DNA of 64,000 nt, taken from NCBI RefSeq assembly GCF_030028105.1, contig NC_092376.1:170777613-170841612 (forward strand), read 5' to 3'. The stretch is from Mobula birostris. Taxonomy: Eukaryota. Shown here piece by piece: positions 3,001 to 6,000 of this stretch. Position numbers: made by a program. Every line of letters starts with the position of its first letter. Within the stretch, counting starts at the first letter, position 1.

Positions 3001-6000
3001 ATAATGCTGGGCTATGACCGTCTGCATCTGAGCTTTCCTCATTTTAGTGGTTACCTTTAGTCTTAACTTTTGAGCGATTGCCAACAGCACAACCCTTGTA
3101 GCATCATCCAATGCCTCAGGAGTTGGTTCCAACAGAAACCTCTCAACACTAATGTCCATTTCTGCTGTTTTTCCACACAAGCAAATCAAAAGGGATTTTC
3201 CCCAATCAATTCAAATAAGCTCCCACACAATTTTTAGAATTGCTCCCACCAATTTGTTCATTTCCCGGATGCAGGCCCTAATTTTGTCACATACCCCATG
3301 GCGGGTTAAAGAACCATAACACCATCTCCAAGCAATCTTTGCCCCTCTCTCTCTTAATAACAAGGTGTCTGTGTTGGACACCTCTCTCTTTCTCTCTTTC
3401 TCTTTTGAAAGCACAGTTCATAGGGATAATTCAGAATCCCGTCACAGATCCAAGTGCTGATAACGGGCTCATCCCGAGTTCAGTTCGAGCCTGATCATTG
3501 GATGGTAAATGTCACCACCCACTCTGAATCTCATTGGTCTGTTTCTCACAGTTGAGGCGGGACCACGGTGGACTGTGGAGGGCAGTGATGTCACCCTCAG
3601 CTGTACCATCTCCAGACTCCCAGATACCGTCAGTCTCCACTGGAAACCAGTGGGCTCATCCCAGCAGAACAGGAGAAACACTGATCAGATCCGGCTCAAT
3701 AACATCGTCTATCTGATGGTCCGACACATTAAGTGTGATTAGATATTAATGAGGCTCTATTGTCATTGGTGGCTCAAGTGATAGTGCTTTGGGAGAACAG
3801 GGAAGACTGGTACAATGTTGTGCTGGTGCACCATTACCGGAGATACAAATAACTCTGAATCAGTTCCATAGCTGGGATATTGTCTGATCCCTTTTCCCTT
3901 TGTTGTACACAATATTCTCAGCCAACTCTTAACACCAAAAGTTTGAAGGATAGTTTGTAAACTAAACTAACCAGGTTATGTATCTAACAAAGGACCTTGG
4001 ACACAGTTATTTCTGTACCGTGTGTCTATCAGCAGGCAGCAGATCCACAGTGGACTGTAGACTGTGGCCAAGTGTCCTCATGCATAAATAGCAATGTTCA
4101 AAAGGAACAACACACACAAAATGCTGGAGAAACTCAGAAGGTCAGACAGCTTCTATGGAGGGAAATAAAGAGTGGATGTTTTGGGCTGAGACCCTTCATC
4201 GGGATTGGAAACAAAAGGGAAGAAGTCAGAGTAAGGTGGTGTGGGAAGTTGTTAAACGTACAATCTGGCAGGTGATAGGTGAGACTAGGTTCGGGCGGTG
4301 GAGTGGGGGTAAACTGGATGGGTGAGGGATGGGGGATGAAATAAGAAGATGCAAGTTGATTGGTGGAAGAGAATAAAGGATGAAGAAGAAGGAAGGTGAC
4401 AAGAAAGGACAGTGGGTCATGGAAGAAAGGGAGGGAAGTGGAATACTAGAGTGAGGTGATGGGCAGGTGGGCAGGTGAGGAGAGAGAATAGATGAGAGGA
4501 GAACCAGAATTGGAAGTAGAAAAGGAGAGTGGGGGGTGGGGGAGAGAAATTACCAGAAGTTAGAAAAATGGATGTTCATGCCATGAGGACGGAATATGAG
4601 GTGTTGCTTCTCCAACCTGTGTGTTGGCCTCATTCTAGCAGTAATTGTTGCAGACCGCAGTTGGTTTGGATTGGCAATAACATCTCCTCCATGATCTCCA
4701 TCAGCACAGGTGCACCACAAGGCTGTGTGCTTAGTCCCTTGTCCCATACTTTCCACTTTACACTTATGACTGTGTGGCTGAACACAGCTTCGATGCCATA
4801 CTCAAGTTTGCTGACAACATCACTGTCATATGCTGAATCAAACGTGGAGATGAGTCAGCATATGTATAGGAGGGTGATTGAAAATCTGGCTGAGTGTTGC
4901 CATAACAATAACTTCTTTACTCAACGTCAGCAAGACCAAAGTGATGATTATTGTCTTCAAGAGGAGGAAATCAGAGGTCCATAAACCAGTCCTCATTGGA
5001 GGATCAGACATGAAGAGTGTCAGCATCTTTAAATCTGTCAGTGAAATTATGATGGAGAACCTACCTGAGCCCAGCTCGTAAATGTAATTATGAAGAAAAC
5101 ACAACAGTGCTTCTTCTTCCTGAGGAGTTTGTGAAGATTCGGCATGACATCTAAAACCTTGACACACATCTATAGATATGTATATTGACTGGCTGCATCA
5201 CAGCCTGTTATGGAAACACTCATGCCCTTGAACAGAAAATCCTACATAAAGTAGGTAAAAAGTGCTCAATGGGTAAGGGCCTTCCACCACTGAGCACATC
5301 TACACAGGAAGTTAGTGTCAGAAAGAAATATCCACGATCAGGGACCACCACCACCCCAGTCATGCTCTCTTGTCACTGCTGCCGTCAGGAAGAAGATGCA
5401 GGAATCTAAGGACTCATAGAACCAGGTTCAGATACAGTTATTGCCCTTCAACCGTCAGGCTCTTGAACCACTGGGGATAACTTTACTCAATTTCACATGC
5501 CCCATCATTGAAATGTACTCACAACTAAGAGACTTACTTTCATGTTCTCATCATCTCATGCTTTTGATATTTATTTCTTATTTTTTATTGTTATTATTAT
5601 TATTATTATTTATTTCTGTATTTGCATAGTTTGTTGCCTTTTGCAAAATTTTCAAACATCCAAGTTAGTGTGGTCTTTCATTGATTCTACTATGGTTATT
5701 AATCTATGAAGGATTTATTGAGTATGTCTACAAGAAAATGAATCTCAGCATTGTATATGCTGGCATATATGTATTGTGATAATAAATTTACTTTGAATTT
5801 TGAACCCTCTGTAAAAGTTGCTACTCAAGTCCCTTTTAATTCTTTCCTCTGTTATCATAGATCTATGTCCTCTAGATTTAAACTCCCCTACCCTGAAGAA
5901 AGTACAAAGTCCATAAGACCATTAAGTATCGGAGTAAAATCAGCCTATTCAACTCATTGAGCTCCATTGTTCTATCATGGCTGATTTATGATCCATGTTA

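What the first reader, a model, noticed from the sequence alone, without database searches (positions are those of the whole stretch)
3470..3731. Orphan paralogous Ig exon: eight consecutive codons replaced beside a 99%-identical core
Compared with 62355..62615, the upstream intron differs at 8/82 nt. The first 29 exon nt differ at 11 positions and change eight consecutive residues (AGPRWTVE vs TSSQQPLL). The next 113 nt differ at one silent site. Coding divergence far above the flanking intron, next to a near-identical block, suggests diversifying selection at the D1-D2 hinge/A strand, a gene-conversion tract, or both (inference). The copy breaks off mid-exon. It shows this gene belongs to a tandem, birth-and-death family.
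Basis: partly seen in the sequence, partly recalled or inferred. Interest (0 to 1): 0.68.

Follow-up and report, generated by a model that had tools for sequence, protein, structure and literature searches.

The report
Orphan exon relic, ray Ig-receptor family
A 260-base dead copy of part of an immune-type receptor exon sits upstream of the live gene in a ray genome, and its one heavily rewritten eight-residue stretch marks the spot that varies most in an otherwise very conserved, apparently unstudied shark-and-ray gene family.

Summary
Window 3470-3735 copies 62355-62621: 82 nt of intron, the splice acceptor and the first 180 nt of an Ig exon. The copy then breaks off.

The live gene (35990 to beyond 64000, + strand) belongs to a multi-Ig family found only in sharks and rays. 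Its best matches are Mobula proteins, so the window is not human. The closest solved relatives are LAG-3 and CD4. The fragment lies 32 kb upstream of that gene's first exon, and no further exon follows it. I read it as a dead relic.

The near-identical core needs no conversion tract: silent-site divergence outside the patch (3/35) equals intron divergence (8/82). The eight-codon patch has a real excess of replacements (10.5 nonsynonymous against 0.5 synonymous).

The patch is not a private oddity. Each of its residues occurs at the same position in living paralogues. It is the most variable part of D2 family-wide, but only in the membrane-distal unit. One Mobula sister pair shows the same mosaic.

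Selection versus short-tract conversion cannot be settled without paralogue DNA. As a fragment it is ordinary; the family pattern is moderately interesting.

The parts
3470..3551 (+). Remnant of the intron upstream of a D2-type exon. It keeps the polypyrimidine tract and AG acceptor.
   Evidence: 8/82 differences from 62355-62436; the last 19 nt are identical to the live copy.
3552..3735 (+). Truncated D2-type Ig exon (pseudo-exon). It holds the first 180 nt, about 60 of 90 codons, with a 1-nt deletion near 3731. Homology is lost after about 3735, and an in-frame TAG lies at 3740-3742.
   Evidence: Alignment; translation; weak Pfam Ig_3 match, E 1.6e-4; best living relative P0016 of Mobula birostris, 92% over 59 aa.
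3557..3580 (+). Eight-codon variable patch (AGPRWTVE), the end of the D1-to-D2 strand and the D2 A strand.
   Evidence: 11 differences in 24 nt from 62442-62465; Nd 10.5 over N 17.7 against Sd 0.5 over S 6.3; this 24-mer occurs once in the window at up to 3 mismatches.
3581..3693 (+). Conserved core (B to D strands, GSDVTLSC...NTDQI).
   Evidence: 1/113 differences, silent. The same residues are nearly invariant in 131 family domains.
62355..62436 (+). Matching end of the intron in the live gene.
   Evidence: Just upstream (62215-62300) lies a SINE-like repeat that has other copies in the window.
62437..62706 (+). Live D2 exon, phase 1 at both ends. Its patch TSSQQPLL is at 62442-62465.
   Evidence: Translation; Pfam Ig_3 E 1e-8 and C1-set E 4e-6; 94% identity to Mobula proteins.
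35990..36077 (+). Signal-peptide exon of the live gene.
   Evidence: tblastn with family proteins; ATG and GTAAGT donor read.
54519..54851 (+). D1 exon of the live gene (V-like, no cysteine pair, ends ...YEIFGIK).
   Evidence: tblastn 77-79% to P0008, P0009 and P0013; boundaries read.
63268..63606 (+). D3 exon (V-like).
   Evidence: weak Pfam V-set match.
63685..63947 (+). D4 exon (C2-like, carries KWTC). The gene runs off the window after it.
   Evidence: Pfam Ig_3 and ig; weak match to LAG-3 D4 in the PDB, E 0.0025.
56500..56775 (+). Second dead exon of the family: a decayed D1-type pseudo-exon inside the D1-to-D2 intron (coordinates approximate).
   Evidence: tblastn 38-51% identity to D1/D5 of family proteins; one frameshift and two in-frame stops; still ends FGIK plus GTGAGT.

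Best explanation
Window 3470-3735 is a non-functional relic. It holds the last 82 nt of an intron and the first two thirds of the D2 exon of a lost or relocated paralogue of the neighbouring gene.

That gene encodes a multi-Ig, LAG-3/CD4-like surface receptor. Its family is expanded in clusters in sharks and rays.

Shown:
- The fragment stands alone. No other exon of the family lies in the 32 kb between it and the live gene's first exon.
- Neutral divergence from the live D2 exon is about 9%, in the intron and at silent sites alike.
- The near-identical core therefore reflects frozen replacement sites, not a conversion tract.
- The eight rewritten codons fall on the one segment of D2 that varies among living paralogues. 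That variation occurs only in the membrane-distal unit.

Inferred:
- The fragment inherited a legitimate A-strand variant from a functional parent gene of the '..W.VE' kind.
- It died recently. A deletion with a breakpoint inside the exon is the most likely cause.
- The fast turnover of the patch in living genes is driven by selection on the exposed junction of the variable head (D1) with D2, by short-tract exchange of the patch between paralogues, or by both.

The relic itself does nothing now.
For: Anatomy:
- There is a single 267-nt match with abrupt ends.
- tblastn with 8 family proteins finds the live gene's SP, D1, D2, D3 and D4 exons. Apart from those it finds only this fragment and one D1 pseudo-exon.
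- A relaxed search with the D2 C-terminus, D3, D4 and remainder of P0016 finds no further exon between 3736 and 35990.

Family:
- 101 proteins reach E <= 0.001 among 2292 candidates. All are named from sharks or rays, and the best are Mobula at 94%.
- The architecture is [D1-D2-D3-D4] x 1 to 4, then a transmembrane segment and a tail with I/VxYxxI motifs.

LAG-3/CD4 likeness:
- The model of P0056 has pLDDT 77.8 and long continuous strands at 123-138 and 326-341.
- Foldseek against the PDB gives LAG-3 at ranks 1 and 2 and CD4 at ranks 4 and 6.
- In the profile search of the PDB, the top 4 of 75 hits are LAG-3, E about 2e-8.

Codon counts:
- Outside the patch, pS is 3/35 = 0.086, pN is 3/115 = 0.026, and the intron is 8/82 = 0.098.
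- In the patch, Nd is 10.5 over N 17.7, and Sd is 0.5 over S 6.3.

Family variability:
- Mean column entropy is 1.82 bits in the patch against 0.56 bits in the next 30 columns, over 131 non-redundant domains. In 41 myliobatiform domains the figures are 1.42 and 0.27.
- Parsimony changes per column on a tree built without the patch, in 22 unit-1 rows: D1 3.59, patch 5.62, rest of D2 1.38. In 16 unit-2 rows: 1.65, 1.62, 1.31.
- Every residue of AGPRWTVE occurs at its position in living members. The nearest patches share 5 of 8 residues, among them P0016 MSPRWPVE, which also shares the fragment's NNIV.
- The fragment's best hit is P0016, 92% over all 59 aa.

Independent replicate: M. birostris P0012 [TSSQQPLL] and P0016 [MSPRWPVE] are sisters (SH-aLRT 98, branches 0.02). 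They differ at 6 of 8 patch residues, but at only 3.6% upstream and 5.0% downstream.
Against: - How the fragment arose is not shown. Both ends of homology are abrupt, and I found no target-site duplication, LTR pair or recognisable carrier element.
- If a whole gene had died in place, its D1 should lie upstream. The window starts only 3.5 kb before the fragment, so this stayed unchecked.
- An isolated copy of about 270 bp (repair-templated or carried by a mobile element) fits the abrupt ends as well as a deletion does.
- The dN/dS contrast rests on one pair and eight codons.
- A and B need not be sister copies. The live gene's D1 is of the P0008 kind, while the fragment's nearest relative is P0016.
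- If D2 exons are homogenised among paralogues, the 9% would underestimate the age of the patch. The excess would then reflect an old patch in young flanks rather than selection.
- The family analysis is at protein level only, so relaxed constraint cannot be separated from positive selection there.
- The patch is not uniquely fast: 22 of 191 eight-column windows, its own and overlapping ones included, change at least as often.
- Outside the patch and its truncation the fragment carries no disabling change. 'Dead' therefore rests on its being truncated and alone, not on decay.
Confidence: 0.7

Rival explanations
1. Patch swap by short-tract gene conversion. The eight codons differ because one lineage received a patch of 24-30 nt from a third paralogue. 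The patch is therefore older than its flanks, and no burst of selected point substitutions is needed.
For: - The patch of P0012 is identical to that of P0008, a gene of another clade, and to that of the window's live exon. Yet P0012's sister P0016 differs at 6 of 8 residues.
- '..W.VE'-like patches occur in Mobula, Hypanus and Hemitrygon genes of several clades.
- The patch is bracketed by highly similar sequence, the 82-nt intron end and the 113-nt core, which could serve as homology arms.
- Lineage-specific core residues shared by D2 and D6 hint at exon-to-exon exchange in the family.
Against: - No donor for the fragment's patch exists in the window at up to 3 mismatches.
- No living protein carries the exact patch; the best share 5 of 8 residues.
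- The variants form a graded series of one- and two-residue steps (TSSQQPLL, TSPQQPLL, TSPQWPLL, VSPQWPVE, ASPQRPVE). Stepwise substitution explains that series equally well.
- No paralogue DNA was available for a conversion test.
Confidence: 0.35
2. One reading: the 113-nt core was homogenised between the two copies by a recent gene-conversion tract, which makes it younger than the intron and the patch.
For: The core differs at 1/113 against 8/82 in the intron (P = 5e-3) and 5/38 further 3' (P = 4e-3). There is a family-level hint of homogenisation of the core between D2 and D6.
Against: - Silent sites of the core (2 differences over 26.2 sites, 0.076) do not differ from the intron (0.098). 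Only replacement sites are frozen, 0 of 88.
- The core's residues are almost invariant across all elasmobranchs. Purifying selection in the living ancestors therefore suffices.
Confidence: 0.12
3. The fragment is kept for a use. It could be a promoter-less donor cassette supplying A-strand variants to the live genes by conversion, or an alternative or terminal exon of an upstream gene.
For: - The acceptor is intact and the reading frame is open through 59 codons.
- There are no replacement changes in the 38 core codons.
- The layout is arm, divergent cassette, arm.
Against: - There is a single copy in 64 kb rather than an array.
- The end has a 1-nt deletion and a stop.
- No compatible donor follows: the nearest GT would leave the wrong phase (reading).
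- The intact state is equally explained by recent death. With about 4.5% neutral change expected on its branch, about 5 replacement changes are expected outside the patch and 3 are seen in both lineages together, which is not significant (my arithmetic).
Confidence: 0.05
4. Assembly or haplotype artefact: the fragment is a mis-placed piece of the live exon or of its other allele.
For: None from the sequence. Raw reads were not available.
Against: - The two copies are 59 kb apart and differ at 25 of 262 nt.
- The fragment has unique flanks on both sides and a patch unlike the live copy. Haplotig duplicates are long and nearly identical.
- The window has no N.
Confidence: 0.03

Closest known systems
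LAG-3 and CD4 (the CD4/LAG-3 family of MHC class II co-receptors)
   Same: - The ectodomain unit is V-C2-V-C2.
- The D1 G strand runs into the D2 A strand, and likewise D3 into D4, in the model.
- LAG-3 is the best hit by fold and by sequence profile.
- The WxC motif is present in D4 (KWTC).
- The tails carry inhibitory-type tyrosine motifs.
   Different: - There are many clustered genes per genome instead of one each.
- The four-domain unit is repeated up to four times.
- D1 lacks the cysteine pair.
- D2 has YQC, not WxC.
- The tails carry canonical I/VxYxxI motifs, not Cx(C/H) or (F/Y)xxL(D/E).
- Sharks already have separate CD4 and LAG-3 genes (abstract of PMC10768021).
Clustered birth-and-death Ig-receptor families with pseudo-exons and gene fragments (KIR and LILR of mammals, CHIR of chicken, LITR and NITR of bony fish); named from my own knowledge
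   Same: - Gene clusters with members of varying domain number.
- Both inhibitory-tail and short-tail forms.
- Dead exons and fragments left between genes.
- Membrane-distal domains vary while the stalk is conserved.
   Different: - The domains are of the LAG-3/CD4 kind, not the LILR/KIR kind.
- The variable spot described here is an eight-residue A-strand patch beside an exceptionally conserved core.
- Neither ligand nor expression is known.
Chicken pseudo-V gene segments that donate sequence by gene conversion; named from my own knowledge
   Same: A truncated Ig exon piece without a promoter, with an open frame and a divergent cassette between homologous arms.
   Different: It is a single copy, not an array. 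There is no evidence of donation and no evidence of a somatic process. This is only the boldest reading.

Membership tests
CD4/LAG-3 family | V-C2-V-C2 ectodomain encoded by phase-1 exons | tested here: met
   The window's D1 (V-like), D2 (Ig_3/C1-set), D3 (V-set, weak) and D4 (Ig_3/ig) exons are all phase 1. The four-domain model of P0056 agrees.
CD4/LAG-3 family | WxC motif in strand F of both D2 and D4 (feature taken from a passage of PMC10768021) | tested here: not met
   D4 has KWTC, so it is met there. D2 has LYQC and D6-type domains have LYTW, so there is no WxC in D2. It is met in one of the two domains only.
CD4/LAG-3 family | Continuous beta strand from D1 into D2 and from D3 into D4 (rod-like pairs); recalled as a CD4 hallmark | tested here: met
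   DSSP on the AlphaFold model of P0056 gives strands 123-138 and 326-341 spanning the domain borders, with pLDDT 84-90 there. This is a prediction, not a solved structure.
CD4/LAG-3 family | Closest solved relatives by sequence and by fold | tested here: met
   In the profile search of the PDB, the top 4 of 75 hits are LAG-3 (E 1.7e-8 to 4.4e-8) and CD4 scores E 1e-4. Foldseek gives LAG-3 at ranks 1 and 2 and CD4 at ranks 4 and 6. TM-scores are only 0.27-0.44, and at least 500 Ig proteins reach E <= 0.001.
CD4/LAG-3 family | Cytoplasmic Cx(C/H) motif (CD4) or (F/Y)xxL(D/E) motif (LAG-3) (abstract of PMC10768021) | tested here: inconclusive
   The tail of the window's gene lies off the window. 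Related database proteins show IHYASI and VIYAQI-type motifs, not the two named ones (read by eye).
CD4/LAG-3 family | Position in the conserved CD4-LAG-3 genomic region | not testable with these tools
   The window holds only this gene and mobile-element ORFs. No vertebrate genome collection was on hand.
Clustered birth-and-death multigene family | Several paralogues clustered on one chromosome, with dead copies among them | tested here: met
   At least 8 M. hypostoma and at least 10 M. birostris proteins each come from a single contig, many with consecutive LOC numbers. The window holds two dead exon pieces, at 3552-3735 and at about 56500-56775. Tandem order itself is inferred from the LOC numbers.
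Processed (retro-copied) pseudogene | Copy of spliced mRNA, without introns | tested here: not met
   The fragment carries 82 nt of intron and the acceptor, so it was copied from genomic DNA or unspliced RNA.

The most novel reading that the evidence does not exclude
Sharks and rays hold an undescribed, expanded family of LAG-3/CD4-like receptors. In it, an eight-residue A-strand cassette at the D1-D2 junction of the outermost unit is diversified under selection and shuffled between paralogues by very short conversion tracts. Orphan exon pieces such as this one, an open-frame cassette between two homology arms, would then serve as germline donors of new cassettes. That would be a germline counterpart of the chicken pseudo-V system.
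Probability: 0.07. Interest if true: 0.75.

Novelty: new member of a known kind. Interest (0 to 1): 0.36.

Why it matters
A stray exon fragment in a clustered Ig-receptor locus is routine, and I score it as such. It is useful as a pointer.

It led to a shark-and-ray family related to LAG-3 and CD4 for which six library searches found no description. Its D2 core has barely changed across elasmobranchs. The eight residues before that core, in the outermost unit only, change as fast as the variable D1.

That localised pattern is what a ligand- or pathogen-facing site would show. It gives comparative immunologists a defined segment to test by codon models, population variation, binding and structure. 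It also adds a third branch to the history of the CD4/LAG-3 family.

The analysis also corrects a common inference. A 99%-identical block beside a divergent one is not by itself a conversion tract. The silent sites have to be checked.

Tried and rejected
- Compensating frameshifts as the cause of the eight changed codons: rejected. Shifted registers match 4 to 10 of 24, against 13 of 24 in register, and a gap-friendly alignment stays ungapped.
- A donor for the fragment's patch elsewhere in the window: none at up to 3 mismatches.
- Residual homology beyond the 267 nt: sensitive blastn of both flanks of both copies found none. It found only a SINE-like repeat at 4083-4225 and 62215-62270.
- An LTR pair or inverted repeats bracketing the fragment: none within 1-14000.
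- Naming the flanking sequence: Pfam at E <= 1 on 13 neighbouring frames gave nothing usable. The Atlas gave only a weak lead, score 0.82, to SCAN or gag-like clusters for 2546-2980 on the minus strand. I therefore do not claim that a mobile element carried or cut the fragment.
- The idea that 62830-62960 holds the missing 3' half of a D2 exon: rejected. Only the last ~10 nt of the exon plus donor and intron are duplicated there.
- 'Two ancient patch classes': softened after the listing showed a graded series.
- Literature: searches found no description of the family. For PMC10768021 I saw the abstract and matched passages only. It does not contain 'obscurin', 'multigene' or 'uncharacterized'. 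Supplements were not seen. Subscription journals are outside the library.
- Not run: complex prediction, the search of protein representatives, and the bacterial/archaeal genome collection. None bears on a vertebrate locus.
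Full report
**What is there.**
- The window is vertebrate DNA: CpG observed/expected 0.30, 43% G+C, no N.
- It is not human.
- Most of the window is mobile-element debris. Reverse-transcriptase, endonuclease and integrase domains occur in 21 of the 55 long frames scanned.
- One real gene lies on the + strand, found by tblastn with family proteins and by reading splice sites:
  - signal-peptide exon, 35990-36077
  - D1, 54519-54851
  - D2, 62437-62706
  - D3, 63268-63606
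  - D4, 63685-63947
- All these exons are phase 1, and the gene runs off the window.
- I searched the exons one at a time and did not build or search a joined model.

**The observation.**
- The only match to the flagged region is 3470-3735 against 62355-62621, 90.3% over 267 columns.
- It covers 82 nt of intron, an identical polypyrimidine tract and acceptor, and the first 180 nt of the D2 exon.
- The eight consecutive codons read AGPRWTVE against TSSQQPLL.
He also omitted a 1-nt deletion just before homology ends at about 3735, and an in-frame stop at 3740.
- The unevenness is not chance. The patch against the intron gives P = 2e-4, and the core against the intron gives P = 5e-3.
- A pair of compensating frameshifts does not explain the patch.

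**It is an orphan.**
- The fragment lies 32 kb upstream of the live gene's first exon, on the same strand.
- Eight full-length family proteins find no other exon between 3736 and 35990. Nor does a relaxed search with the D2 C-terminus, D3, D4 and remainder of the closest relative.
- In the live gene, D3 and D4 follow D2 within 1.3 kb.
- Beyond the 267 nt the flanks of the two copies share nothing except a SINE-like repeat. That repeat sits at 4083-4225 near the fragment, and at 62215-62300 just upstream of the live copy's stretch.
- I found no LTR pair, inverted repeat or recognisable carrier.
- How the piece came to stand alone is therefore not shown. It could be a deletion with one breakpoint inside the exon, or an isolated copy of about 270 bp.
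- Because it contains intron, it is not a processed pseudogene.
- A second dead exon lies inside the live gene's D1-D2 intron at about 56500-56775. It is a decayed D1-type pseudo-exon with one frameshift and two stops. Exon-level birth and death is thus visible twice in this window.

**The family.**
- The D2 exon finds 101 proteins at E <= 0.001 among 2292 candidates. All carry names from sharks, skates or rays, and nearly all are called 'uncharacterized protein'. The best are Mobula at 94% identity.
- Members consist of a signal peptide, one to four four-domain units D1-D2-D3-D4, a membrane span, and often a tail with I/VxYxxI motifs.
- In each Mobula species the members come from one chromosome-sized contig, many with consecutive LOC numbers. 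That fits a gene cluster, but tandem order is my inference.
- An AlphaFold model of the four-domain member P0056 was built from 30 aligned sequences (pLDDT 77.8, pTM 0.67). It shows a 16-residue strand running from D1 into D2, and another from D3 into D4.
- By fold, the best PDB matches are LAG-3 (ranks 1, 2) and CD4 (ranks 4, 6). TM-scores are low (0.27-0.44), and at least 500 Ig proteins also match.
- By sequence profile, the top 4 of 75 PDB hits are LAG-3 at E about 2e-8, aligned D3-D4 to D3-D4.
- The WxC motif is named as the family's unusual mark in a passage of PMC10768021. It is present in D4 (KWTC) but not in D2 (YQC).
- I therefore call the family LAG-3/CD4-like and do not file it as a member.
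'Hinge' is not: the junction is a continuous strand, and in CD4 the hinge lies after D2 (passage seen).

**The near-identical core.**
- Outside the patch, silent divergence is 3 differences over 35 sites (0.086). The intron is 8/82 (0.098).
- In the core proper, silent divergence is 2 over 26.2 sites (0.076), while replacement sites show 0 of 88.
- The core is therefore as old as the intron. Only amino-acid-changing sites are frozen.
- That is expected. The residues GSDVTLSCTISRL.DTVSLHWK... are almost invariant in 131 non-redundant D2/D6 domains from the whole of elasmobranch diversity.
- No conversion tract is needed for this pair.
- One hint of exchange on a longer time scale exists. Lineage-specific residues of the core are shared by D2 and D6 within stingrays and Mobula, and within some shark lineages. 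Parallel change is an alternative explanation.

**The patch.**
- It holds 10.5 replacement against 0.5 silent differences (pN 0.59, pS 0.08).
- That is far above the neutral level of about 9%, so relaxed constraint alone cannot produce it.
- The fragment cannot have been under selection since it died, so the difference was inherited from living genes.
- The family data agree:
  - Every residue of AGPRWTVE occurs at the same position in living members.
  - The nearest patches share 5 of 8 residues. One is M. birostris P0016 (MSPRWPVE), which also shares the fragment's unusual NNIV.
  - P0016 is the fragment's best hit overall, 92% over 59 aa.
  - No living protein has the exact patch.
- Across the family, patch columns are three to five times more variable than the next 30 columns: 1.82 against 0.56 bits overall, and 1.42 against 0.27 in stingrays plus Mobula.
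- I built a tree from D1 plus the rest of D2 with the patch removed. In 22 membrane-distal units the patch changes 5.62 times per column, against 3.59 for D1 and 1.38 for the rest of D2.
- In 16 membrane-proximal units the same segment is nearly fixed as ADSQRPVM: 1.62 against 1.65 and 1.31.
- The patch is thus the tail end of the variable head, not a generally loose A strand.
- It is not uniquely fast, though. 22 of 191 eight-column windows, its own and overlapping ones included, do as well.
- Rows left out of these counts:
  - domains with fewer than 10 residues upstream or fewer than 118 residues upstream;
  - exact duplicates, 8 and 2;
  - the unnamed or unlisted proteins P0104 and P0105.
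- The pairwise distances are ungapped, so the D1 values are inflated by indels.

**An independent replicate, and the open question.**
- M. birostris P0012 and P0016 are sister genes (SH-aLRT 98). They differ by 3.6% upstream and 5.0% downstream of the patch, yet at 6 of 8 patch residues.
- P0012's patch is identical to that of P0008, from another clade, and to that of the window's live exon. That favours transfer of the patch by a very short conversion tract.
- Against this, the variants form a graded series of small steps, which stepwise substitution would also give.
- Telling the two apart needs the DNA of many paralogues. No vertebrate genome collection was available, so this stayed unchecked, as did the region upstream of the window and the raw reads.

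**Verdict.**
- The feature is real and correctly described.
- It is best read as a recently dead, truncated D2 pseudo-exon of a clustered LAG-3/CD4-like receptor family.
- His 'diversifying A strand' idea is supported as a family-wide pattern but is not proven to be selection.
- The relic is ordinary. The family and its localised variable patch deserve a look from people who study immune receptors of cartilaginous fish.
- I found no description of the family in the searched library. For PMC10768021 I saw the abstract and matched passages only, and no supplements.

Noticed in passing
window about 56500-56775 (+): A decayed D1-type pseudo-exon lies inside the D1-to-D2 intron of the live gene. 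It has one frameshift and two in-frame stops, but still ends in ...FGIK followed by a GTGAGT donor. It overlaps the open N-terminal part of a minus-strand reverse-transcriptase frame.
   Followed up: partly
window 62698-62840 and 62958-63101: The last ~10 nt of the D2 exon, its GTAAGT donor and about 130 nt of intron are repeated 260 nt downstream at 77% identity. This creates a second potential donor site in the D2-D3 intron. The rest of the exon is not repeated there.
   Followed up: partly
window 24364-24483 (+): Residues 1-40 of the database protein P0013 (Mobula birostris) match this stretch at 87.5%. The stretch lies in a long frame next to a LINE endonuclease/RT frame. The N-terminal extension of that gene model is probably derived from a mobile element.
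   Followed up: no
family proteins (listing); window 62437-62706 for the D2 type: D6-type domains (second unit) have tryptophan where D2 has its second cysteine (LYTWEV against LYQCEV), so the canonical disulfide of that domain seems lost. Lineage-specific core residues are shared by D2 and D6 within stingrays and Mobula (RLPDTVSLHWKP) and within lamniform sharks and catsharks (RLSDTVSLHWKQ). This hints at exon-to-exon homogenisation.
   Followed up: partly
window 4083-4225, 16671-16736, 21391-21490, 55043-55183, 58016-58072, 62215-62300: These are copies of a short SINE-like repeat with a shared GCTGGAG...CAGCAGGTCAGGCAGCAT core. One copy lies just upstream of the live D2 exon's conserved intron end, close to where homology with the fragment stops.
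   Followed up: partly
window 1-3300 (-): The left flank of the fragment holds an integrase frame (803-1450) and a reverse-transcriptase frame (1-366). It also holds about 1.2 kb of one reading frame broken by two stops (1745-2980), which has only a weak Atlas lead (0.82) to SCAN or gag-like clusters. The order and gaps suggest nested or internally deleted retroelements. No LTR pair was found.
   Followed up: partly
window 3557-3580: The fragment's patch is G-rich (11 of 24 bases), and 7 of its 11 differences from the live copy have G on the fragment's side. It contains the near-palindrome CCACGGTGG. I found no explanation.
   Followed up: no
window 36078-54518 and 54852-62436: The first two introns of the live gene are 18.4 kb and 7.6 kb and are packed with retroelement frames. 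The D2-D3 and D3-D4 introns are only 561 and 78 nt.
   Followed up: no
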